A stretch of 33,641 bases of DNA from a virus. The notes below the pieces were generated by a model. That model searched no databases and had not been told where the DNA came from. It saw nothing but the letters and a program-made list of their open reading frames with translations. Below, in pieces: positions 498 through 33,196 of this stretch. The translations under genes and the position numbers were made by a program. Location: UHGV virus genome UHGV-0275541. One strand, written 5' to 3'. Each line of letters opens with the position of its first letter. Position 1 is the first letter of the stretch.

Positions 498-787
498 TGG
501 TGGATTTACGTAAAGCGGCGCGGGGGCAGATGTGCACCGTCAGAATTCCTGGCTACTGCAATCACAATCCCGAAACATCTGTGCTGGCGCATTACAGGCT
601 GTCGGGGACGTGCGGAACAGCGACAAAACCACACGATATGCAGGCAGCGATTGCCTGTAGCTCATGCCACGATTTAATCGACGGGCGGGTAAAAACCAGC
701 GATTACACCAAAGAAGAATTACGCCTGATGCATGCAGAAGGTGTTTTTCGCACACAAGAAATCTGGAGAAAGGAAGGTTATTTATGA
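497..787 (+). CDS. YbcO-like small Cys-rich protein (DUF1364-type putative nuclease)
   Basis: 96 aa; several Cys/His (CTVRIPGYCNHNPETSVLAH..., ACSSCHDLIDGR); resembles E. coli DLP12 YbcO as I recall it; stop overlaps next start (ATGA at 784-787). Confidence 0.65.
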   Translation: MVDLRKAARGQMCTVRIPGYCNHNPETSVLAHYRLSGTCGTATKPHDMQAAIACSSCHDLIDGRVKTSDYTKEELRLMHAEGVFRTQEIWRKEGYL

Positions 788-1326
788 TTTACCCAACAAA
801 TACAGGCAAAAGCGGGGAACACCTTCGTCTCACCACGCTGGAAAGTGTCTGGATTCAGGGAAAACTGCGCATGTGGGGGCGCTGGTCGTATATTGGCGGC
901 GGTAAGACGGGAAATATGTTCAATCAGTTGCTGGCCTCTAAAAAGCTGACAAAAACCGCGATCAATGAAGCCCTGCGTAGACTCAGGGAGTCAGGGATTG
1001 ATAAACCAGAGCTGGAAGCATTCTTGCGAGAGATGATCGCTGGCAGACAGAAGAGCTGGTTGTCTCACTGTACTGATGCAGAGGCGTTACGCATTGATGG
1101 GGTGATAAGTAAAGCGCTTGCACGTTATCCTGGATTGATTGATATCCTGCGGCAAAGGTACGAAGGGCGGGGGATGAGTAAACGCAAAATGGCTGAATTG
1201 TTGAATGAGGTGCACCCGGAATGGTGTTTTAGTACATGCGAAAAGCGAATTGCTAATTGGTTGGCTGTTGCTGAATATGCGCTATACATCCCTATGCGAG
1301 AATCGTTTGCTCAAAAAATGGCTTGA
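784..1326 (+). CDS. putative late-gene antitermination protein Q-like
   Basis: 180 aa starting MIYPTNTGKS (ATG 784); position after nin genes and directly before a strong intrinsic terminator; WGRWSY segment resembles the WGAW region of Q-family antiterminators (from memory). The upstream extension to 664 overlaps ybcO and was not used. Confidence 0.55.
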   Translation: MIYPTNTGKSGEHLRLTTLESVWIQGKLRMWGRWSYIGGGKTGNMFNQLLASKKLTKTAINEALRRLRESGIDKPELEAFLREMIAGRQKSWLSHCTDAEALRIDGVISKALARYPGLIDILRQRYEGRGMSKRKMAELLNEVHPEWCFSTCEKRIANWLAVAEYALYIPMRESFAQKMA

Positions 1327-1408
1327 TTTTTTACGCATAAACTGTTTCAATCCAGCTACGCTTCGCAAAGCTGTACCGCGAGGCGAATAGCAGACATGGA
1401 CACCTGAA

Positions 1409-1436
1409 AGAACCCGCTTTATGCGGGTTTTTTTAT
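1409..1436 (+). terminator. intrinsic terminator (tR'-like) downstream of Q-like gene
   Basis: Stem CCCGC(1413-1417)/GCGGG(1423-1427), loop TTTAT, followed by T8 (1428-1435). Confidence 0.8.
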
Positions 1437-1557
1437 GCCTGAAAAACGGCACAGAACATTAAACGCGCTGGTAGTTGTGAATACTGGTCTTTCAGCTTGC
1501 TGGCTTTTTCGACAAGAGTTATTGGTATGTCACGTTAACCGGAAAAGGGAAAAAGAC

Positions 1558-1755
1558 ATGCTAAAACAGCAGGATATGACCGAAACCGCCAGAGTGGTGT
1601 TTAATGAATTAAGCGTCACCGAACCGGCGACCGTCGGGGAGATTGCACAGAATACTTACCTTTCACGCGAACGCTGCCAGTTAATACTGACCCAGCTTGT
1701 TATGGCGGGTCTGGCAGATTATCAGTTCGGTTGTTACAGACGCCTTCCGCAGTGA
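1558..1755 (+). CDS. small hypothetical protein with helix-turn-helix-like segment
   Basis: 65 aa from ATG 1558 with AAAGGGAAAAAG upstream; segment TVGEIAQNTYLSRERCQLILTQL looks like an HTH. The longer ORF from 1435 begins inside the terminator and was not used. Confidence 0.4.
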   Translation: MLKQQDMTETARVVFNELSVTEPATVGEIAQNTYLSRERCQLILTQLVMAGLADYQFGCYRRLPQ

Positions 1756-1765
1756 AGGCTTTTTT
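1742..1765 (+). terminator. intrinsic terminator-like hairpin
   Basis: GCCTTC(1742-1747)/GAAGGC(1754-1759) stem, 6-nt loop, T6 (1760-1765); stop codon of the small ORF lies in the loop. Confidence 0.55.
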
Positions 1766-1905
1766 ATTTGTGGTAATGGGCGGCTGGTAGGTGTTAGCGG
1801 CACCTGCCAACCATCTGCTCATGCGCTGGGGTCACAAGCAAACCTCAGGCCCATCTGCTTTGCGCAAAAGCAGAATGAGCCTATCAGAGAAGTGCTTATT
1901 GATCT

Positions 1906-2952
1906 ATGGCTAATACTGTAAAAATATCCAGTTGTGAGTTAATCAACGCTGATTGCCTGGAATTTATCCAGACCTTACCGGAAAACTCTGTCGACCTGAT
2001 AGTCACAGACCCGCCATACTTTAAAGTGAAGCCCGAGGGCTGGGATAACCAGTGGAAGGGCGACGATGATTACCTGAAATGGCTGGACCAGTGTCTGGCG
2101 CAGTTCTGGCGGGTACTGAAGCCCGCCGGAAGTCTTTACCTGTTCTGTGGTCATCGCCTGGCATCTGATATCGAAATCATGATGCGTGAGCGCTTTAATG
2201 TGCTGAACCACATTATCTGGGCGAAGCCGTCCGGGCGCTGGAACGGGTGCAACAAGGAAAGCCTGCGGACGTATTTTCCGGCAACAGAACGCATTCTGTT
2301 TGCTGAACATTATCAGGGGCCATATCAGCCAAAAAATGACGGCTATGCGGCAAAGGGGCGCGAGCTTAAGCAGCACGTGATGGCTCCGCTGATTTCTTAC
2401 TTTCGTGATGCGCGTGAATCACTGGGGATAACGTCAAAACAGATAGCGGAAGCCACCGGAAAGAAAAACATGGCTTCCCACTGGTTTGGCACCAGTCAGT
2501 GGCAGTTACCAAACAAGGTTGATTACAGAAAACTGCAGGCGTTGTTTGCGCGTGTTGCGGCAGAAAAACATCAACGCGGGGAACTGGAAAAGCCACACCA
2601 CCAGCTGGTCAGCACATACAGTGAACTGAACCGGCGATATGCCAGTCTGCTGGAGGAGTACAAATCCCTGCGGCGTTATTTTTCCGTATCGGCTGCCGTT
2701 CCGTATACGGATGTCTGGACGCACAAGCCTGTGCAGTATTACCCCGGCAAACATCCCTGTGAGAAACCGGCGGATATGTTGCGTCAGATAATTACTGCCA
2801 GCAGTCGTCCGGGAGATTTGGTTGCTGATTTTTTTATGGGGTCGGGGTCAACAGTAAAAGCAGCATTATCGCTGGGAAGGCGTGCAATAGGTGTGGAGCT
2901 GGAAGAAGAGAGATTTAACCAGACTGTAAGCGAAATAAAAGAAAATAGTTAA
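1906..2952 (+). CDS. DNA N6-adenine methyltransferase (beta-class, orphan, no cognate endonuclease in window)
   Basis: 348 aa; catalytic motif IV DPPY (LIVTDPPYF) near N-terminus and AdoMet motif I FxGxG (DFFMGSGST) near C-terminus, the circularly permuted order typical of beta-class amino-MTases. Confidence 0.85.
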   Translation: MANTVKISSCELINADCLEFIQTLPENSVDLIVTDPPYFKVKPEGWDNQWKGDDDYLKWLDQCLAQFWRVLKPAGSLYLFCGHRLASDIEIMMRERFNVLNHIIWAKPSGRWNGCNKESLRTYFPATERILFAEHYQGPYQPKNDGYAAKGRELKQHVMAPLISYFRDARESLGITSKQIAEATGKKNMASHWFGTSQWQLPNKVDYRKLQALFARVAAEKHQRGELEKPHHQLVSTYSELNRRYASLLEEYKSLRRYFSVSAAVPYTDVWTHKPVQYYPGKHPCEKPADMLRQIITASSRPGDLVADFFMGSGSTVKAALSLGRRAIGVELEEERFNQTVSEIKENS

Positions 2953-3133: not shown

Positions 3134-3206
3134 GCCGATTTAACTTAGCAGACAAAGCAACTGACTTGTAATCACCGGGTCGCCAGTTCGATTCCGGTAA
3201 TCGGCA
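3134..3206 (+). tRNA. degenerate tRNA-like element (anticodon loop CTTGTAA suggests UGU/Thr); possibly a pseudo-tRNA
   Basis: 7-bp acceptor helix GCCGATT/AATCGGC, U8-A9, T-loop TTCGATT, but 2 mismatches in anticodon stem, 1 in T-stem, and D-loop lacks GG. Hand fold only. Confidence 0.4.
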
Positions 3207-3212
3207 CTATAT

Positions 3213-3287
<75 letters not shown>

Positions 3288-21561: not shown

Positions 21562-22568
21562 TGCGTTATTACCGACTGGAAATTATTAATCCTAAAACAG
21601 GCAAGCCGCCAGTGGATAGCAATGGAAAACCCATTGGACCTTTTGATACCAATGAAACACCAGGATGTGGGTTGCATGTTGAATTTGACTTTGAAGTAAC
21701 CGGCCTGGATATAGTCTGTTCGGGTACGATGCTGACGATCTATGGATTACCAATTGACATGCTGAAGCAAAGCGTAAGTTTGCAGGGTTGTCTGGTACGT
21801 ATGAAAGCAGGCTTTGTTCAGGGGTTACCACTGGCAAATAAGGATCAACAGGGGGAGGTAATCTATGGTGAAATTTATCTGGCCTATGCCAACTGGATCG
21901 GCACGAACCAGACTTTAAACCTGGTAATAAATCCAAGCATACGCAAAACCGATGACGGTAAACCTTTTTCAATTGAGGGGCAGGGGGAAGCAGGGGAAAG
22001 GGTGGGCGATGTTTTAGTCCGCGCTTTGCAAAAAGCATATCCCAATAAACTTATTGATTGCACAGTCAGCGACAACCTGGTTTTGCCAGAGCCGTGGACG
22101 GGCAAATATACGGAGATTGGTTCGCTGGCTATGGTCGTAAAAAACGCCTCTATTGCGATGATGCGTAATGAAAGGTATAGCGGAATCGCCATCAGTATTC
22201 TTTCCGACAGAATACGAATCTACGATAACGCATCGGCAAAGTGGGGTGAGCCAAAAACAATTCATGCCCATGAACTGGTCGGGCAGCCGACATGGATAGC
22301 GCCGTTTACCGTCAGTTTCAAATGCCCTATGAGAGGCGATATCAGATGTGGTGATGTGATTAAACTGCCGGAGGGGCTATATTCTGGCGCTGCGTCGATT
22401 GTGATGGCTAATACAACGGTACCCAGCGTTATCGCAAAAAATTCGACCACGTTCACCGGGAAATTTCTTGTGAAATCAGTCAGACACATTGGTTCGTATC
22501 TGACAGCCGATGGCGATGCCTGGGTGACGGTATTTGAGGCATATGCTGAGAACTGGGCGAGGGTGTAA
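21561..22568 (+). CDS. putative baseplate hub-like protein
   Basis: 335 aa; position after tape measure and before spike-like gene; assignment by order only. Confidence 0.4.
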   Translation: MRYYRLEIINPKTGKPPVDSNGKPIGPFDTNETPGCGLHVEFDFEVTGLDIVCSGTMLTIYGLPIDMLKQSVSLQGCLVRMKAGFVQGLPLANKDQQGEVIYGEIYLAYANWIGTNQTLNLVINPSIRKTDDGKPFSIEGQGEAGERVGDVLVRALQKAYPNKLIDCTVSDNLVLPEPWTGKYTEIGSLAMVVKNASIAMMRNERYSGIAISILSDRIRIYDNASAKWGEPKTIHAHELVGQPTWIAPFTVSFKCPMRGDIRCGDVIKLPEGLYSGAASIVMANTTVPSVIAKNSTTFTGKFLVKSVRHIGSYLTADGDAWVTVFEAYAENWARV

Positions 22569-23281
22569 TGTCAAACGCTCAAAAATTACCGTTTCTCCGA
22601 ACACTGTCGGAGATGATGACCAGTTCTGGTAACCAGCAAGCCGAGCTTAAAGGCCGCGAATTGCCCTGCCATGTTGTCGGTGTCAGCGGGCAGATAGTGA
22701 CAGTTCAGTTTGATATGCTGCCGGAGGGGATCAACTTTCCGCAGATAACAATCCCTGTCGCCACATTCCCGTATATTCGTTACCCGATACAGCCGGGCGA
22801 TCGAGGAGTAACAATTGCCGCTGATGTATCCCTGCGCGGTGTGTCCGGATTGGGAACCGGTATGGCGACGCTCTCTTACTCGATGTCGCTCACTCCACTG
22901 TTTTTCGTGCCACTGGCAAACAAGGACTGGTCCGACGAAGATCCGCAAAAAATCGTTTTGTACGGTCCGGATGGCGCGATCCTCAAAACAGAGGACGGCA
23001 GTAGCTCGGTAACGGTGGCACCGGAAGAAATCAGGCAAAAGTCGAAAGCTGTTTACCTCGAGGCCGAAGATATTTTCCTGAACGGGAAAATTCACCTCAA
23101 CGGTCCAATCGTCCAGGACAAAGCCCAGATGAAGGATACAACCGCTTCGCTGATTGGCCCGCTTACTGTGCAAAATGACGCGGTGATAAAAGGTGTCAGT
23201 GCCAGCGGCCACAGCCACGATGTGACTGGCGTTCAAAGCGGCGGCAGCACGATCACGTCGAAGCAACCAAATCGGGGTTAA
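22568..23281 (+). CDS. putative baseplate spike/assembly protein (gpV-like)
   Basis: 237 aa; ATG overlaps previous TAA; size and position consistent with a baseplate spike; Gly/Ser-rich C-terminus. Confidence 0.4.
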   Translation: MSNAQKLPFLRTLSEMMTSSGNQQAELKGRELPCHVVGVSGQIVTVQFDMLPEGINFPQITIPVATFPYIRYPIQPGDRGVTIAADVSLRGVSGLGTGMATLSYSMSLTPLFFVPLANKDWSDEDPQKIVLYGPDGAILKTEDGSSSVTVAPEEIRQKSKAVYLEAEDIFLNGKIHLNGPIVQDKAQMKDTTASLIGPLTVQNDAVIKGVSASGHSHDVTGVQSGGSTITSKQPNRG

Positions 23282-23321
23282 TTCCGGTTCATTTCACTTT
23301 AAATTCTATCTCATAAAGCGA

Positions 23322-23356
23322 AAGCCCCGGCTGCTGGAACAGTTCGGGGCTTTTTG
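23322..23356 (+). terminator. intrinsic terminator-like hairpin (copy B of repeated hairpin-RBS module)
   Basis: GCCCCGGCTG / CAG(TT)CGGGGC stem, loop CTGGAA, followed by TTTTTGTTTCTG; about 80% identical to 5149-5215 over about 70 bp. Confidence 0.65.
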
Positions 23357-23387
23357 TTTCTGACCTTGAATAAGGCAAGGAGAAGTC

Positions 23388-23525
23388 GTGTTTGATTTTA
23401 GCAAACTGATTCGGGAGATTCGAGTTATGGCTGAAAAATTATCCACCTGGAAGTTTTTGCTTATTTGGTTGGTCTTTCTGATTCTGGCGTCTGGTTATTT
23501 TGTTGGCCAGATCCGATGGTGGTGA
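23388..23525 (+). CDS. small ORF (45 aa, GTG start) encoding a hydrophobic peptide; coding status uncertain
   Basis: GTG 23388 placed after the conserved AAGGAGAAG RBS of module copy B; encodes ...KFLLIWLVFLILASGYFVGQIRWW. Confidence 0.3.
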   Translation: MFDFSKLIREIRVMAEKLSTWKFLLIWLVFLILASGYFVGQIRWW

Positions 23526-23532
23526 GGGCACG

Positions 23533-23880
23533 ATGAGAACATGGGGCCGCGTCACCGACGCGAACGGCAACAAAAAATGGGTTGCAGTAGAATCTGACGC
23601 CAACGGTGATTTCTCCTACGGCTGGTTGACGACGCTCATTCAGACGTTAAAGCTGGGATTGGGGGAGTCGCCGTTTTACGCGAATTACGGTATTCCTGCG
23701 CAGCAGTGCATCGTGCAGCAGATTTACCCAGACTACTATGTGAACATGGTTCAGCAACAGTTTGCCGGGTATTTTGCATCGCTGGCAATTTCAAAGGTAG
23801 ATGGGGCAGCGAACCCCACCTATAACATCGATGTTGTGTTTTTTAATGGGACCAGTTACCGGACGCAGGTGCCGGTATGA
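23533..23880 (+). CDS. phage baseplate-region hypothetical protein
   Basis: 115 aa from ATG 23533 (ORF track starts at 23500); position between spike-like and J-like baseplate genes. Confidence 0.45.
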   Translation: MRTWGRVTDANGNKKWVAVESDANGDFSYGWLTTLIQTLKLGLGESPFYANYGIPAQQCIVQQIYPDYYVNMVQQQFAGYFASLAISKVDGAANPTYNIDVVFFNGTSYRTQVPV

Positions 23881-23973
23881 ATCACAGTTTTATGATAAAA
23901 CTTTTACCTTGGTTTGGAGTGCTGTAGAGAGATATTTTAGGGGGGGCGAGTAATTTTCTAAGCTGGAGCATAT

Positions 23974-24003
23974 TGACATATATTATTTCGGATTTGCAAA
24001 ATA
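23974..24003 (+). promoter_or_regulatory. candidate sigma70-type promoter for the nuclease-like inserted gene
   Basis: Perfect -35 hexamer TTGACA at 23974-23979 in an AT-rich stretch; -10 ambiguous (TATATT immediately 3' of it, or CAAATA at 18-bp spacing). Confidence 0.3.
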
Positions 24004-24030
24004 CATATTGTTACCATGGAGGAGACAAGT

Positions 24031-25191
24031 ATGGAAAATTTTGCAAATAAGTTAAAAATACACACAGAGCATGTTGCAAAAATGGGGGTGTTTTGTACAA
24101 CTGAAGAAACGACAAAACAAGCACTCATTATGCCATTACTAGATATTCTTGGTTTTACTCCGTATGATCCAAGAAAAGTCAAAGCTGAGTATAGTGCTGA
24201 CTTCCCCGGGGTTAAGGCTAATGAACGGGTTGATTACGCTTTATTTTGTCATGATGTTCCTGTGATGTTCATTGAGGCGAAATCGTTTTCAGAACAAATT
24301 GATAATCACTGCCCACAGCTATCAAGATATTTTAATTCAACACCGGAAGTTACTATATCAGCCATTACAAATGGTGTTGAATGGCGTTTTTTTACGGATT
24401 TGAAACAAAAAAACATAATGGATTCAACGCCGTTTTTAAAAATAAGAATGGATTCTCTAACTCACTCCGATATTACACAATTATTTCGTTTTCGTTATGA
24501 TAAATTCAAACCAGAGGCTTTACGGACACTGGCTGAAGAAAGTGTTTATTTGAATTCATTTACTAAAACAATCAGTTCTAGTCTTCGTGAAGTTGATCTG
24601 GAGTTTGTTCGATATGTTGCTAGTCGTTCAAATATTGAGAGACAACTTAATCAGAGATTTCTTGAGTTCGTGACTCCATTAGTTAAACAGGCCGTTGAGC
24701 GCGCTGTTAGCGCAATGGTGGTTTCCGGGCTATCTACACAACCGGTAGAGCAAACTAAAGAAAATGATGCAACGGATACACAAGTTAATAACGCCATTGT
24801 TGATGAAGAAAACCCCAACATAATAACCACAGCCAAAGAATTGGAGCTATTTGAAAGGGTAAAACAAATCATACAAACAGAAGATAATATAGAATATAAA
24901 GATACTGAGTCATATTTTGGTGTACTATTGAATGGTAAAACTAATAGATGGCTGTTAAGATTTTATGATAAAAAATCTTCATTTATAACTTTACCTATTT
25001 CGCTTAGTGAAGTTCAGTTGAATGAAATAAGACGAGCTCGACTTGATACGGATGGTAAAAGGATACATATAACTAATCCGGAAGATATACTTCGCATATC
25101 TGGTTTGATTCTGGATTCATACGAGTATGTTAAAAATGATGATAATTTCCGCCGAGGGTCCAGAGCGAGTAGTTTAGAAGAGGTTGAATAA
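24031..25191 (+). CDS. stand-alone PD-(D/E)xK nuclease-like protein resembling the N-terminal domain of type I restriction HsdR (HsdR-N-like)
   Basis: 386 aa from ATG 24031 (GGAGGAG RBS; alternative ATG 24016); motifs TTKQALIMPLLDILGF and ERVDYALF...VMFIEAKS match the HsdR N-terminal nuclease pattern (ADYVLF...VVEAKR in EcoKI HsdR as I recall it); AT-rich codon usage unlike flanking genes. Confidence 0.6.
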   Translation: MENFANKLKIHTEHVAKMGVFCTTEETTKQALIMPLLDILGFTPYDPRKVKAEYSADFPGVKANERVDYALFCHDVPVMFIEAKSFSEQIDNHCPQLSRYFNSTPEVTISAITNGVEWRFFTDLKQKNIMDSTPFLKIRMDSLTHSDITQLFRFRYDKFKPEALRTLAEESVYLNSFTKTISSSLREVDLEFVRYVASRSNIERQLNQRFLEFVTPLVKQAVERAVSAMVVSGLSTQPVEQTKENDATDTQVNNAIVDEENPNIITTAKELELFERVKQIIQTEDNIEYKDTESYFGVLLNGKTNRWLLRFYDKKSSFITLPISLSEVQLNEIRRARLDTDGKRIHITNPEDILRISGLILDSYEYVKNDDNFRRGSRASSLEEVE

Positions 25192-25193
25192 GT

Positions 25194-25219
25194 AAAAAAC
25201 CCGCGAAAGCGGGTTTTTT
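25194..25219. terminator. bidirectional intrinsic terminator after the nuclease-like gene
   Basis: A6-CCCGC-GAAA-GCGGG-T6. Confidence 0.85.
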
Positions 25220-25231
25220 AATGGAGTAAAT

Positions 25232-26458
25232 ATGTCAGAAATACCAATTACTATGACCAGTGCGGGGGCGCAGCCTACGCCACCCAATGATTTGCTTGCA
25301 AAGCTTATCATCAGAGTTGCTGAAAAAGTACCTGGATATACAGCCAACCTTCCGGCGGGGCTTATTACTGACCTTGCCAGCACGGCAGTCGGGGCGCTGG
25401 CATTAATAGACCAGGCGCGGGTGGACCTTATTAACTCCGTAAGCCCATACGGCGCAAATATTCCGTTACTGATGCAACTCGGAAACATTTATGGAGCACA
25501 GAAGGGATTAAGTACAAATACGGCGGTATACGTGGTGTTTGAGGCGTTGCCGGGGTTTGGTATCCCTAAAGGATTTGTTGTCGGTGACGGCAACTACCAG
25601 TATGCAGTTTCCCGCGATACGGTGGTGCCGGAAAGCGGGCAGACTGAGCCAGTCTACTGTGTGGCCACAACGTCAGGCTCATGGGCTGTACCGGAAGGAA
25701 CCGTAACGCAGGTCATTACATCGGTACCCAAAGATCAGCCTGTAAAATGCACGAACCTTACCGCAGGGATGCCAGGTCAGGAGGCGCAAACGTGGGCATC
25801 TTACCGCGCCGAAGTCATGGAGTCCGGCATGTTTGGTGTGCAGGGAACACCGGATTGCTTTAAAGCGATGCTCAAATCAGTAAGCGGTGTGCGAGAAAAC
25901 CTGATTTCTTTCCGGCAGTCGTCGCTGGGGAAATGGGTTGCGGTTGTTGGTGGCGGTGATCCGTATGATGTGGCTTATGCTATTTACAAATCTGTACCGG
26001 ATATTTCGAAACTGACCAACGATGTTAGCAATCCATCTGGTGCGGCAGTGGAAAAACGCACGGTTTCAATAACCGTTTCGCCAGATGTTTATCAGGTGCC
26101 GTTCGTTATCCCGTCATCACAAAACGTCATGGTGCTAATCACCTGGAACACTGTATCTGATGATTATGTTGATCCGGCGGGTATTGCTATGGCTGTGCAG
26201 CAAAACGTTGCTGATTACATCAATTCTATTGAAGTCGGACACCCGATAAATCTGCTGCGAATCCAGGATATTTTTACCAGTTCCGTCAGATTGTTGGTTG
26301 ATGCGACGTTGATCTCAACAATCAGTGTGAGCATTGGCATTAATGGCCATATTGTTCCTCCGGCAAAAGACACAAGCCTGGTTTATGGCGATACCTATTC
26401 CTATTTTTCGACGGTGGTATCACAGGTTCAAGTTAACAAGTATGCAATATCTGACTGA
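25232..26458 (+). CDS. putative baseplate J-like protein
   Basis: 408 aa; GGAG RBS; size and position before tail-fibre genes; assignment by order. Confidence 0.45.
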   Translation: MSEIPITMTSAGAQPTPPNDLLAKLIIRVAEKVPGYTANLPAGLITDLASTAVGALALIDQARVDLINSVSPYGANIPLLMQLGNIYGAQKGLSTNTAVYVVFEALPGFGIPKGFVVGDGNYQYAVSRDTVVPESGQTEPVYCVATTSGSWAVPEGTVTQVITSVPKDQPVKCTNLTAGMPGQEAQTWASYRAEVMESGMFGVQGTPDCFKAMLKSVSGVRENLISFRQSSLGKWVAVVGGGDPYDVAYAIYKSVPDISKLTNDVSNPSGAAVEKRTVSITVSPDVYQVPFVIPSSQNVMVLITWNTVSDDYVDPAGIAMAVQQNVADYINSIEVGHPINLLRIQDIFTSSVRLLVDATLISTISVSIGINGHIVPPAKDTSLVYGDTYSYFSTVVSQVQVNKYAISD

Positions 26459-31391: not shown

Positions 31392-31421
31392 CATGAAGTA
31401 AAAGTGATGGGAGAAACTTTC

Positions 31422-32093
31422 ATGAATATGCCTCATTGTGTTCTGCATACAGGAATTGATTCGGATTTTGTACTTAGTAAACTGGGCTTTACAGAAAATG
31501 ATATTCGCGATGCGTTAATGTCTGCTTTATACGAGCGATGCAAATCCAGTAAGCTCCACCCTAAAGTGGATGCTGGATTCCGCTTTTGGAGTGAGATGGT
31601 TGCCGCGCTTCGCCGTATTCTGATTGGTAAGGGTAACGGCTGGTCTTCTGAAGTAGTCAATCGCATGGAAATGGTCGTTAATTCAAGCAAAGGGGTTAAT
31701 CTGATTATTACCTCAGGTGACGGACATACCGGGCGTCCTGATGGATTGCCTAAAACCAAAAATGCAAAGGGAGAGGCAACTCGCTCGATTGTTCACAACA
31801 ATCCGGGTACATTCGATATGTTCCAAGCAGACACCTTACATTCAGGCAAAGCTGAGATCACGCCGATAGATAGCACCCGAACTTATATCGTTCTGTATTA
31901 TTATGATGCGGCAAATAAAGAAATTCGCTGTGAGGTGTCGTATCCGGTAGGGATGGTGAATCAGGACGGATTTGCCAGAGTAAGCGCGTGGAGTGAGCGA
32001 ATTATTTTAGCTCCTCTGCAATTTGAAGGTGCGGATATTTTCCCTGAACAGGATTTTGATGATGACATATCAATTTCAGTTGAAAGCAAATGA
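31422..32093 (+). CDS. hypothetical protein, no recognisable family (candidate effector/toxin partner of the HTH-peptidase gene)
   Basis: 223 aa from ATG 31422 (GGGAGA RBS 7 nt upstream); AT-rich; stop overlaps downstream start (ATGA at 32090-32093), indicating translational coupling. Confidence 0.6.
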   Translation: MNMPHCVLHTGIDSDFVLSKLGFTENDIRDALMSALYERCKSSKLHPKVDAGFRFWSEMVAALRRILIGKGNGWSSEVVNRMEMVVNSSKGVNLIITSGDGHTGRPDGLPKTKNAKGEATRSIVHNNPGTFDMFQADTLHSGKAEITPIDSTRTYIVLYYYDAANKEIRCEVSYPVGMVNQDGFARVSAWSERIILAPLQFEGADIFPEQDFDDDISISVESK

Positions 32094-33196
32094 GTAACAC
32101 TGTTGATGATGTCAAACGTCTTTTTAATCCGTCTCGACTAAAGCTAGCGCGGATCAGACGCAAACTGACCTTGGCAGAACTGGCGAGGCGAACCGGGTTA
32201 TCTAGTCGTATCGTAATTGAATACGAAAAAGATTATTGTCTTTATGCACCCACGGCAGAGACGGTACGCGCATACGCTAGTGCTTTAAATTATCCAGAGG
32301 CTTTTTTCTTTGGCGATGATGTTGAAACAATTGATCCATTGACTGTTTCATTTCGTTCATTACGCACAACAAAAGCTGCTGACCAGCATGCGGCAATTGG
32401 TGCAGGTGCTTTAGGGGTTATGCTTAGCGATTATTTTAATGCTCGCTTTACTCTTCCTTCGCCTCAATTGCCGAATCTCCGTGGAAGTGAGCCTGAGGTC
32501 GCTGCCCAAGCGATACGCGAGGCTTGGGGGATTGGTAAGAAGAGTATCACCAATGTTGTTCATCTACTTGAGAAATTTGGAGTTAAGGTGTTCTGGCTTT
32601 CAGAGGAAACAGCGAGTATTGATGCTTTTTCGTTCTGGAAAGATGATGTCCCTTATATCTTTCTTAACACACGCAAGTCAGGTGAACGCAGCCGTTTTGA
32701 TGCCGCACATGAATTGGCTCACCTAGTACTTCATCGTCAAGGGGAAGTCAAAGGGCAGGATGCTGAGCGTGAAGCGGATGCTTTTGCTTCTGCATTTCTA
32801 ATGCCTCAGGAAAACGTGATGGCCGTTAAGATGGTGGTCCCGACGTTTGATAAAATTGTGCAATTGAAATCACTCTGGAAAGTTTCGGCTATGGCCCTGA
32901 TTGTCAGAATGCGCAATCTAAATATGCTGACGGAATGGCAGTATAATAGTTTGATGCGTGATGCGACGGCAAAGGGGTATCGAACCGGCGAGCCGGGGGG
33001 AATTGAGCGCGAAAGATCACTCGTTATAGAAAAAATGATGACTGCTCTGGCTGGAGACGGCATTTATCTGGCTCAGTTGAGTGATGAGCTTAACGTACCT
33101 CTCGATGAATTGAGTAGTTTGCTTTATGGAGTTGCGGCAATTAGTGGCGGAAATAGCAAAAGAACACCATCAAGGGCTTCGCTCCGACTAGTATGA
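32090..33196 (+). CDS. HTH-XRE DNA-binding domain fused to ImmA/IrrE-family (M78, COG2856) zinc metallopeptidase
   Basis: 368 aa; N-terminal XRE-type HTH (LKLARIRRKLTLAELARRTGLSSRIVIEYE); HExxH motif HELAHLVLH followed by EREADAFASAFLMP, the characteristic ImmA/IrrE signature. Confidence 0.8.
   Translation: MSNTVDDVKRLFNPSRLKLARIRRKLTLAELARRTGLSSRIVIEYEKDYCLYAPTAETVRAYASALNYPEAFFFGDDVETIDPLTVSFRSLRTTKAADQHAAIGAGALGVMLSDYFNARFTLPSPQLPNLRGSEPEVAAQAIREAWGIGKKSITNVVHLLEKFGVKVFWLSEETASIDAFSFWKDDVPYIFLNTRKSGERSRFDAAHELAHLVLHRQGEVKGQDAEREADAFASAFLMPQENVMAVKMVVPTFDKIVQLKSLWKVSAMALIVRMRNLNMLTEWQYNSLMRDATAKGYRTGEPGGIERERSLVIEKMMTALAGDGIYLAQLSDELNVPLDELSSLLYGVAAISGGNSKRTPSRASLRLV

What the first reader, a model, noticed from the sequence alone, without database searches (positions are those of the whole stretch)
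23941..25219. Stand-alone HsdR-N-like PD-(D/E)xK nuclease inserted between baseplate genes
A 386-aa protein with the nuclease signature of the type I restriction HsdR N-terminal domain (ERVDYALF...MFIEAKS) but no helicase, methylase or specificity partner. It is AT-rich, has a candidate promoter of its own (TTGACA at 23974, next to a G7 homopolymer at 23941-23947) and a strong bidirectional terminator, and it interrupts an otherwise tightly coupled baseplate operon. The C-terminal about 200 aa match nothing I recognise. This fits a single-gene anti-phage defence or exclusion gene, a class that is poorly characterised.
Basis: partly seen in the sequence, partly recalled or inferred. Interest (0 to 1): 0.7.

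Follow-up and report, generated by a model that had tools for sequence, protein, structure and literature searches.

The report
Solitary prophage nuclease, likely anti-phage
A self-contained gene cassette dropped between two baseplate genes of an E. coli prophage encodes a catalytically intact restriction-type DNA nuclease with no partner genes. Its family usually sits right behind prophage repressors, so it is a good but untested candidate for a single-gene anti-phage defence.

Summary
Window 24031-25191 (+) encodes a 386-aa protein inside a 1332-bp, 35% GC cassette (23892-25223). The cassette has its own promoter-like site, ribosome-binding site and bidirectional terminator. The closest phages carry antirepressor cargo in the same slot, so this is swappable cargo and not a structural gene.

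The N-terminal 160 aa form an HsdR-type PD-(D/E)xK nuclease. D68, E82, K84, Q96 and Y100 are essentially invariant across 126 relatives taken from clusters at 50% identity. A helical connector and an acidic flexible linker follow. The C-terminal domain has no sequence match, but its model resembles YdhG, YjbR and the DNA-binding domain of T4 MotA.

It is not a type I restriction subunit, despite the RefSeq name: it has no motor domains and no hsdM/hsdS, and a methylase is rarely nearby. No PADLOC model covers the family, and I found no experimental paper on it.

The family is large (PHROG 4225, thousands of members across phyla). It most often lies directly downstream of a prophage repressor, the position of lambda rexAB.

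Best reading: a nuclease made in the lysogen that restricts incoming phage DNA. The defence role and the trigger are inferred, not shown. Interest is moderate.

The parts
23892..25223 (.). Cargo cassette of 1332 bp and about 35% GC, lying between the small upstream baseplate-operon gene (PHROG 7986, function unknown) and the baseplate J gene
   Evidence: Homology to Rac-SA53 and vB_Apl-pPE4 (94-96% identity) stops at 23891 and resumes at 25224. Those phages hold 1847 bp and 1034 bp of reverse-strand antirepressor cargo instead. GC profile.
23940..23946 (+). G7 homopolymer, 26 nt upstream of the -35 hexamer
   Evidence: Read directly from the sequence. It is G6 in strains EC11 and F9792, and G7 in OkiPb01675 and GmM062. 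Its function is unknown and the difference could be a sequencing artefact.
23973..24002 (+). Sigma-70 promoter-like site: TTGACA, 18 nt, CAAAAT
   Evidence: It matches 10 of 12 positions and is the best site in the region. This is a consensus match only; no transcription start site is shown.
23992..24048 (+). Inverted repeat and RNA hairpin enclosing the ribosome-binding site and start codon
   Evidence: The arms are a perfect 11 nt. The fold gives -16.2 kcal/mol, z -3.0, with the start codon paired. The 5' arm overlaps the -10 hexamer, so it would be present only in read-through transcripts from upstream. That last point is inference.
24031..25191 (+). Coding sequence for the 386-aa solitary HsdR-N-type nuclease (stop codon included)
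   Evidence: It matches PHROG 4225 over its full length at 4.5e-149.
24031..24510 (+). N-terminal PD-(D/E)xK nuclease domain (aa 1-160). Catalytic codons: D68 24232-24234, E82 24274-24276, K84 24280-24282, Q96 24316-24318, Y100 24328-24330
24511..24732 (+). Helical connector (aa 161-234)
24733..24807 (+). Acidic, disordered linker (aa 235-259)
   Evidence: pLDDT is below 50 over aa 234-253. Net charge is -5 here and ranges from -9 to -2 across the family. Its sequence is not conserved.
24808..25155 (+). C-terminal alpha/beta domain (aa 260-375) resembling YdhG, YjbR and the T4 MotA C-terminal domain
25193..25220 (.). Bidirectional intrinsic terminator: A6, GC-rich 12-bp stem, T6
   Evidence: Perfect inverted repeat. 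dG is -17.4 kcal/mol, z is -5.6, and 0 of 200 shuffles fold as well.
23533..23880 (+). Left flank: conserved 115-aa gene of the baseplate operon
   Evidence: PHROG 7986 at 8.9e-64, function unknown. It is present in Rac-SA53 (rac59) and in vB_Apl-pPE4.
25232..26458 (+). Right flank: baseplate J / wedge subunit gene
   Evidence: PHROG 6, baseplate wedge subunit, 3.3e-37. RefSeq calls it 'baseplate J/gp47 family protein'.

Best explanation
This is a horizontally acquired, self-contained accessory cassette ('moron') in a Rac-SA53-like E. coli prophage. It encodes a one-protein restriction-like DNA endonuclease.

**Shown.**
- The N-terminal domain is an HsdR/RecB-type PD-(D/E)xK nuclease with a complete active site (D68, E82-x-K84, Q96xxxY100).
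- It is joined by a helical connector and an acidic flexible linker to a conserved C-terminal alpha/beta domain of the YdhG/YjbR/MotA-C-terminal fold.
- The family has no conserved partner gene and most often sits just downstream of the prophage repressor.

**Inferred.**
- The protein is made in the lysogen, here from its own promoter.
- The C-terminal domain recognises a feature that incoming phage DNA has and host DNA lacks. This is most likely a base modification or a DNA structure or end, because there is no protecting methylase.
- The tethered nuclease, probably after dimerising, then cuts that DNA. The enzyme would act like a type IV or type IIS restriction enzyme and exclude superinfecting phages.
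For: - **Nuclease identity:**
- **Active site essentially invariant in 126 relatives taken from clusters at 50% identity:**. This implies selection for catalysis.
- **Cassette status:** low GC, exact boundaries with other cargo in sister phages, own terminator.
- **Present in only 25 of 5426 complete E. coli genomes, always in this slot:**
- **Homologues directly downstream of repressors:** Klebsiella phage KpF5, C. koseri (22 nt gap, in a decayed prophage remnant that keeps the repressor-nuclease pair), E. coli PCN061 and STEC384, S. pneumoniae phage IPP25 and a Clostridium plasmid-prophage.
- **Across 78 species:** the upstream neighbour is on the same strand in 65. Cro/CI-type HTH (18) and S24 peptidase (15) are its commonest domains.
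- **No partner:** downstream neighbours are heterogeneous. A DNA methylase was found within 5 kb in only 3 of 80 loci.
- **C-terminal domain:** its fold group includes a proven DNA-binding domain, T4 MotA. A basic/aromatic set of residues is conserved.
- **Nuclease plus connector:** this part resembles type IIG/IIL enzymes, which cut at a distance from their recognition module.
- **Same prophage carries RosmerTA, a known defence system:**
Against: - There is no experimental evidence of protection for any family member in the literature I could search. The one relevant paper only notes an HsdR-N-only gene in a phage-resistant C. jejuni strain, with its role 'unclear'.
- No PADLOC model matches.
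- The C-terminal domain is acidic overall (pI about 5), which is unusual for a DNA binder. Its best structural match is a frataxin-like protein, not a DNA reader.
- Here the gene is co-oriented with the late genes, so it could also be expressed during lytic growth.
- The promoter is only a consensus match.
- What the domain recognises is unknown.
Confidence: 0.5

Rival explanations
1. Abortive-infection nuclease. The nuclease is held inactive by its own acidic linker and C-terminal domain. A phage protein or other infection cue releases it, and it then degrades host and phage DNA alike, killing the infected cell.
For: - The linker (net charge -5) and the C-terminal domain (pI about 5) are acidic across the family and could mimic DNA or occlude the active site.
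- The best fold matches of the C-terminal domain are not DNA readers.
- Neighbours often include toxin-antitoxin parts such as PIN, HicB, MqsA, HigB and RES.
- There is no methylase partner.
- From general knowledge, the single-gene PD-(D/E)xK system Shedu works by autoinhibition.
Against: - There is no evidence of toxicity or of a trigger.
- A conserved basic/aromatic patch (K/R290, Y295, K/R306, R310) fits nucleic-acid binding equally well.
- The MotA C-terminal domain in the same fold group binds DNA.
Confidence: 0.22
2. The phage's own nuclease for lytic growth. It would degrade host DNA, process recombination or replication intermediates, or out-compete co-infecting phages during lytic growth. 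It would not protect the lysogen.
For: - In this window the gene is on the same strand as the late genes, with no terminator between the upstream gene and the cassette.
- QxxxY is a RecB-family motif (general knowledge).
- PHROG files the family under DNA, RNA and nucleotide metabolism.
Against: - In most contexts the gene lies in the lysogeny module, co-oriented with the repressor and opposite to the early lytic genes.
- It is retained with the repressor in a decayed prophage and as a lone chromosomal gene in Gilliamella.
- Sister phages do without it.
- The 5' hairpin would mask the start codon in read-through late transcripts (inference).
Confidence: 0.12
3. Free-standing homing endonuclease. 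A selfish nuclease gene (catalytic domain, linker, DNA-binding domain, as in I-TevI) that spreads by cutting cassette-free alleles of the baseplate region.
For: - It is an intergenic insertion between conserved phage genes, AT-rich, with its own expression signals.
- The nuclease-linker-binding-domain layout is modular.
Against: - No empty-site allele was seen. Alternative alleles carry unrelated antirepressor cargo of about 940 to 1850 bp between the same boundaries.
- Homologues sit in many unrelated sites, mostly behind repressors, and also in non-phage chromosome.
- Homing genes are typical of lytic phages (general knowledge).
Confidence: 0.06
4. It is what RefSeq calls it: a type I restriction endonuclease subunit or fragment. 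It would work with a host HsdM/HsdS complex, act as a decoy against one, or form a restriction-modification pair with the prophage methylase at 1906-2952.
For: - RefSeq names it 'type I restriction endonuclease'.
- It matches Pfam HSDR_N.
- A DNA methylase lies in the same prophage, and methylases lie within 1-5 kb in four lambdoid contexts.
Against: - It has no motor or helicase domains and no HsdM-binding C-terminal region.
- NCBIfam's HsdR equivalog model scores 19 bits against a cut-off of 729.
- No hsdM or hsdS lies nearby.
- The methylase occurs in phiP27 and Stx phages, none of which match the nuclease by DNA or protein search.
- Only 3 of 80 loci have any methylase within 5 kb.
- The family is full-length and conserved, so it is not a truncation remnant.
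Confidence: 0.03

Closest known systems
Nuclease domain of type I restriction subunit HsdR (EcoR124I, PDB 2w00; V. vulnificus fragment 3h1t; Pfam PF04313/PF13588)
   Same: It has the same PD-(D/E)xK subfamily, the same D...ExK catalytic triad and a following QxxxY helix.
   Different: It lacks the translocase motor and the helical HsdM-binding domain, and has no hsdM/hsdS. Total length is 386 aa, against 842-990 residues for the EcoR124I HsdR chains in the PDB hits. It carries a C-terminal domain that Pfam does not cover.
Type IIG/IIL restriction enzymes BpuSI (3s1s) and DrdV (7lo5)
   Different: There is no methyltransferase or target-recognition domain. The recognition module is instead a small YdhG/YjbR/MotA-like domain.
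Type IV (modification-dependent) restriction enzymes such as Mrr and MspJI
   Same: One polypeptide combines a PD-(D/E)xK nuclease with a separate recognition domain, and there is no cognate methylase. One source (JGI) names a family member 'predicted type IV restriction endonuclease'. Steczkiewicz et al. 2012 group COG4748 with HSDR_N.
   Different: The recognition domain is not a known modified-base reader fold. Dependence on modification is untested.
Shedu (SduA, DUF4263)
   Same: Both are single-gene PD-(D/E)xK nuclease defences with an added regulatory or sensing domain (general knowledge).
   Different: The nuclease subfamily and domain order differ, and no PADLOC Shedu model matches.
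Lambda RexAB, P22 SieB and BTP1 BstA (defence genes placed next to the prophage repressor)
   Same: Homologues occupy the same genomic position, immediately downstream of and co-oriented with the maintenance repressor.
   Different: The proteins are unrelated. In this window the gene lies in a baseplate-region slot and not beside the repressor.
T4 MotA C-terminal 'double-wing' DNA-binding domain, with the YjbR/DUF419 and YdhG/DUF1801 folds
   Different: Sequence identity is only 10-14%, the domain is acidic, and no function can be transferred with confidence.
DefenseFinder 'FS_HsdR_like' (a defence gene carried by phage-inducible chromosomal islands, Fillol-Salom et al. 2022)
   Same: From memory only: a single 'HsdR-like' protein reported to protect against phages.
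   Different: I could not obtain the sequence, the HMM or the paper. Whether it is this family is unknown. If it is, the finding is already known.

Membership tests
Type I restriction enzyme R subunit (HsdR) | N-terminal PD-(D/E)xK nuclease domain with D...ExK and QxxxY | tested here: met
Type I restriction enzyme R subunit (HsdR) | SF2 translocase motor domains and a C-terminal domain that docks on HsdM | tested here: not met
   The protein is 386 aa and has no further Pfam domains. The NCBIfam HsdR equivalog scores 19 bits against a cut-off of 729.
Type I restriction enzyme R subunit (HsdR) | hsdM and hsdS genes linked to it | tested here: not met
   None lies in the cassette or its flanks. 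No methylase or specificity subunit appears among the commonest neighbour families listed for 78 and 73 species.
PD-(D/E)xK nuclease superfamily | Restriction-endonuclease-like fold with an acidic/lysine catalytic core | tested here: met
Restriction-modification pair (nuclease plus cognate methylase) | A methyltransferase that is genetically linked and co-inherited | tested here: not met
   The prophage methylase lies 21 kb away and occurs in phages that lack the nuclease. A methylase lies within 5 kb in 3 of 80 loci. This count may miss some methylases, because the pre-filter relied on seed homology and catalytic motifs.
Known anti-phage defence systems (PADLOC-DB v2.0.0) | Match to a system-specific HMM | tested here: not met
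   The window protein has 0 hits at E <= 1. Of 46 family members, 16 match only a type IIG model, and weakly.
Type IV modification-dependent restriction enzyme | Nuclease without a methylase, plus a domain that reads modified DNA, plus cleavage that depends on modification | tested here: inconclusive
   The absence of a methylase is met. The C-terminal domain is not a recognised reader fold. Dependence on modification cannot be tested with these tools.
Prophage moron / lysogenic-conversion cassette | Own promoter and terminator, deviant composition, absent from close relatives | tested here: met
   The promoter is a consensus match only.
Free-standing homing endonuclease | Insertion next to its own cleavage site, with intact empty-site alleles in relatives | tested here: not met
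   No empty site was seen among the rows shown for about 90 E. coli records whose best match is at least 90% identical. Alternative alleles hold other cargo. Homologues lie in many unrelated sites. Cleavage specificity itself was not testable.
Structural baseplate component | Conserved in related phages and matching tail or baseplate families | tested here: not met
   It is absent from Rac-SA53 and vB_Apl-pPE4, whose flanking genes are 94-96% identical. PHROG files the family as an endonuclease, not as a tail protein.
DefenseFinder FS_HsdR_like | Match to the DefenseFinder HMM | not testable with these tools
   Neither the model nor the paper is available here.

The most novel reading that the evidence does not exclude
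The PHROG 4225 / COG4748-type proteins are a widespread, so far unrecognised single-gene immune system of temperate phages in Proteobacteria, Firmicutes, Bacteroidota and Actinobacteria. In this reading, an HsdR-type nuclease is steered or gated by a MotA-C-terminal-like sensor domain that detects a hallmark of foreign phage DNA or of infection. In this cassette a promoter-specific 5' leader would allow translation only from the lysogenic transcript and mask the start codon in late read-through RNA, so the phage does not attack itself during its own lytic growth.
Probability: 0.3. Interest if true: 0.65.

Novelty: new variant of a known kind. Interest (0 to 1): 0.5.

Why it matters
- **If it protects,** this would add a very common and compact (about 1.2 kb) single-gene nuclease system to the catalogue of prophage-encoded immunity. 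It would have a recognition domain not yet linked to defence.
- **Annotation.** It would correct a systematic RefSeq over-annotation ('type I restriction endonuclease') across the family, which has more than 8000 clusters at 90% identity.
- **Phage biology.** The recurrent placement behind repressors gives a simple rule for finding such genes. The slot between the upstream 115-aa gene and baseplate J is a concrete example of cargo exchange (antirepressor versus nuclease) inside a late operon.
- **If it does not protect,** it is still a clean example of a moron cassette.

Tried and rejected
1. **Type I HsdR subunit or fragment.** Rejected: no motor domains, no hsdM/hsdS, and the NCBIfam equivalog scores far below its cut-off.
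2. **Restriction-modification pair with the prophage methylase at 1906-2952.** Rejected: the methylase is found in phiP27 and Stx phages that lack the nuclease. Methylases lie near only 3 of 80 family loci.
3. **Structural baseplate protein.** Rejected.
4. **Known defence system.** PADLOC gives nothing, both for the protein and for 46 relatives.
5. **Sequence searches of the PDB.** Searches with the whole protein and with profiles of each domain gave only chance-level hits: haemagglutinin, proteasome and UPF0358.
6. **Pfam on the C-terminal domain.** Only noise.
8. **The afdb50 fold library.** Not available, so other architectures carrying the C-terminal domain were not surveyed.
9. **Rfam.** Only terminator-driven sub-threshold hits in the cassette.
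10. **Literature.** Ten searches found no functional study. The Fillol-Salom 2022 paper and the DefenseFinder FS_HsdR_like model could not be obtained.
11. **12-nt direct repeat** GTTTTTTAATGG at 23838 and 25213, considered as an insertion scar. The left copy lies 42 nt inside the conserved flank, so it is probably chance.
Full report
**1. The observation**

The ORF at 24016-25191 (+) is real. The probable start is ATG 24031, which gives 386 aa; GGAGGA lies 7 nt upstream, and RefSeq uses the same start in identical E. coli copies.

- Pfam finds HSDR_N (5e-14, 53 bits against a cut-off of 25.1) and HSDR_N_2 (2e-9) in residues 25-128.
- GC is 0.35 across 24001-25000, against about 0.5 on both sides.
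- The promoter-like site (10/12) is the best in the region. The AT-rich DNA gives 10 such sites where 5.8 +/- 1.9 are expected, so it is suggestive only.
- The terminator is strong and symmetric: a 12-bp perfect stem at 25193-25220 flanked by A6 and T6, dG -17.4 kcal/mol, z -5.6.

**2. It is a swappable cassette, not a structural gene**

The nearest phage records are Escherichia phage Rac-SA53 and 'Actinobacillus' phage vB_Apl-pPE4. They share the flanking baseplate genes at 94-96% identity but lack this gene.

Homology stops at 23891, 11 nt after the stop codon of the upstream 115-aa gene. It resumes at 25224, 8 nt before the baseplate J start codon. In that slot the two phages carry 1847 bp and 1034 bp of reverse-strand cargo: an antirepressor plus one or two hypothetical genes.

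Among 5426 complete E. coli genomes, 25 carry this cassette at 99% identity or more, always in this slot. Other prophages with the same flanks carry antirepressor-type cargo of about 940-1850 bp, and I saw no empty site.

A terminator-like hairpin (23320-23356, -24.7 kcal/mol for the 66-nt stretch 23305-23370) and a 45-aa membrane-peptide ORF (23388-23525) lie between the 237-aa baseplate gene at 22568-23281 and the upstream 115-aa gene.

**3. The protein**

An AlphaFold2 model built on 46 sequences (pLDDT 80.7) has four parts:

| Part | Residues | Confidence (pLDDT) |
|---|---|---|
| Nuclease domain | 1-160 | about 90 |
| Three-helix connector | 161-234 | about 65 |
| Disordered linker | 234-253 | below 50 |
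| C-terminal domain | 260-375 | about 89 |

**4. The family and its contexts**

The protein matches PHROG 4225 ('endonuclease') end to end at 4.5e-149. Relatives are numerous:

- 3369 clusters at 50% identity reach E <= 1e-3, and 293 reach E <= 1e-30.
- More than 8000 clusters at 90% identity surround a streptococcal member.

Protein-level hits occur in temperate phages of Klebsiella, Clostridium, Enterococcus, Lacticaseibacillus, Streptococcus, Porphyromonas, Fusobacterium, Pseudomonas and Corynebacterium.

The recurring position is immediately downstream of, and co-oriented with, the lysogeny repressor:

- Klebsiella phage KpF5.
- E. coli PCN061, behind RacR, and E. coli STEC384.
- S. pneumoniae phage IPP25, in the order repressor, small ORF, this gene, integrase.
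- A Clostridium plasmid-prophage.
- Citrobacter koseri, where a cI-like HTH + S24 repressor ends 22 nt upstream. The pair survives in a decayed prophage remnant between purB and phoPQ.

Other positions also occur. One copy lies between Q and the methylase/tRNA/stx2 region of an Stx2 prophage. One lies next to HicAB in a Porphyromonas phage. One is a lone chromosomal gene in Gilliamella.

Across 80 species loci, the nearest upstream ORF is on the same strand in 65 of 78. Its commonest Pfam domains are HTH_3 (18) and Peptidase_S24 (15). Downstream neighbours have no common theme; the most frequent are P22-type antirepressors (4), Bro-N (3), PIN (3) and scattered toxin-antitoxin parts. No helicase, specificity subunit or methylase recurs. 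A methylase lies within 5 kb in 3 of 80 loci, all small phage Dam enzymes.

**5.

The window carries an N6/N4 DNA methylase at 1906-2952, just after the Q antiterminator. It is 84-93% identical to methylases in phiP27 and many Stx phages. None of those phages matched the nuclease in the phage collection, by DNA or by protein search. It is a typical orphan phage methylase and not a partner.

**6. How it most likely works**

*Shown:* an intact HsdR-type nuclease; a tethered, conserved second domain; no partner gene; accessory status; and a habitual place in the lysogeny module.

*Inferred:* the protein is made in the lysogen and cuts incoming phage DNA. With no protecting methylase, it must distinguish self from foreign in some other way. 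I favour recognition of a DNA feature by the C-terminal domain (a modification, a structure or an end) with cleavage by the tethered nuclease. This would resemble a type IV or type IIS enzyme. The resemblance of the nuclease plus connector to type IIG/IIL enzymes fits that picture.

The main rival is an autoinhibited nuclease released by a phage cue (abortive infection), which the acidic linker and domain would suit. Less likely readings are a nuclease used in the phage's own lytic growth and a homing endonuclease. A type I subunit or a restriction-modification pair is effectively excluded.

**7. A detail that may matter**

An 11-nt perfect inverted repeat (23992-24002 and 24038-24048) lets RNA spanning 23985-24055 fold into a hairpin of -16.2 kcal/mol (z -3.0) that pairs the start codon. 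The 5' arm overlaps the -10 hexamer. A transcript from the cassette's own promoter would therefore lack that arm, while read-through late transcripts would contain it. This could restrict translation to the lysogenic transcript. It is speculation and is flagged as such.

**8. Comparison with what is known, and novelty**

The RefSeq name 'type I restriction endonuclease' is an over-annotation. The nuclease-domain test is met, but the motor and hsdM/hsdS tests fail.

PADLOC v2 has no model for the family. Sixteen of the 46 family members scanned touch a type IIG model weakly, presumably through the nuclease domain.

Searches of the held literature found no functional study. One paper notes an HsdR-N-only gene present in a phage-resistant and absent from a phage-sensitive C. 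jejuni strain, with its role 'unclear'. Steczkiewicz et al. 2012 group COG4748 with HSDR_N.

From memory only, DefenseFinder lists a system called 'FS_HsdR_like', found on phage-inducible chromosomal islands. I could not obtain it, so an overlap cannot be excluded.

I rate the finding as a new variant of a known kind: a single-polypeptide nuclease defence candidate with an unrecognised recognition domain, in a family already catalogued but uncharacterised.

**9. Verdict**

The defence interpretation is well supported by context but unproven. Interest is moderate (0.5): a specialist would find it plausible rather than surprising. The family's size and its consistent placement make it a worthwhile and easily tested candidate.

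Noticed in passing
window 31404-33196: A RosmerTA defence system lies at the prophage end, after the tail-fibre genes. RmrT (31404-32093) matches PADLOC at 1e-58. RmrA (32090-33196, HTH + M78 peptidase) matches at 6.6e-143. The prophage therefore carries at least one recognised defence system besides the candidate.
   Followed up: partly
window 664-2952: A Q-type antiterminator (664-1326, DUF1133 + Phage_antitermQ) is followed by an orphan N6/N4 DNA methylase (1906-2952). The methylase is 84-93% identical to those of phiP27 and Stx phages. It is not linked to the nuclease.
   Followed up: yes
window 3134-3287: Rfam finds two tRNA genes after the methylase (3134-3206 at 45.9 bits; 3213-3284 at 65.6 bits). 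ARAGORN calls only the second, as tRNA-Gly(UCC).
   Followed up: no
window 23345-23525: A stretch of about 183 nt is about 85% identical to unannotated DNA in roughly 900 E. coli genomes and many Stx phages. It covers a 45-aa ORF (GTG 23388 to 23525, VFDFSKLIREIRVMAEKLSTWKFLLIWLVFLILASGYFVGQIRWW) with one hydrophobic helix, annotated as rac58 in Rac-SA53. Its function is unknown.
   Followed up: partly
window 23320-23356: A terminator-like hairpin with a T-run lies right after the 237-aa baseplate gene at 22568-23281 (-24.7 kcal/mol for 23305-23370, z -3.4). With the cassette terminator at 25193-25220, late transcription must read through two terminators to reach baseplate J. This presumably depends on Q antitermination (inference).
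   Followed up: partly
window 23940-23946: The homopolymer is G7 in this window and in strains OkiPb01675 and GmM062, but G6 in EC11 and F9792. It lies upstream of the -35 hexamer. It could be a real length polymorphism or a sequencing artefact.
   Followed up: partly
window 23992-24048: A perfect 11-nt inverted repeat flanks the ribosome-binding site. The RNA fold pairs the start codon (-16.2 kcal/mol, z -3.0, 3 of 200 shuffles fold as well). The 5' arm overlaps the -10 hexamer, so the hairpin could form only in transcripts that start upstream.
   Followed up: partly
L002 (PP818812.1, 'Actinobacillus phage vB_Apl-pPE4'): A phage deposited as infecting Actinobacillus pleuropneumoniae is 96% identical to this E. 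coli prophage over the baseplate region. The host label deserves a check.
   Followed up: no
L012-L014 (Citrobacter koseri, between purB and phoPQ): A decayed prophage remnant keeps a cI-like repressor and the nuclease homologue 22 nt apart, together with terminase and RecT fragments. The same protein is seen on dozens of contigs. This looks like domestication of the repressor-nuclease pair.
   Followed up: partly
window 23892-25223 slot, and loci L020-L099: Antirepressor genes are the alternative cargo in this slot. P22-type antirepressors and Bro-N genes are also the commonest downstream neighbours of family members in other species. Nuclease and antirepressor genes seem to share the same accessory sites.
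   Followed up: no
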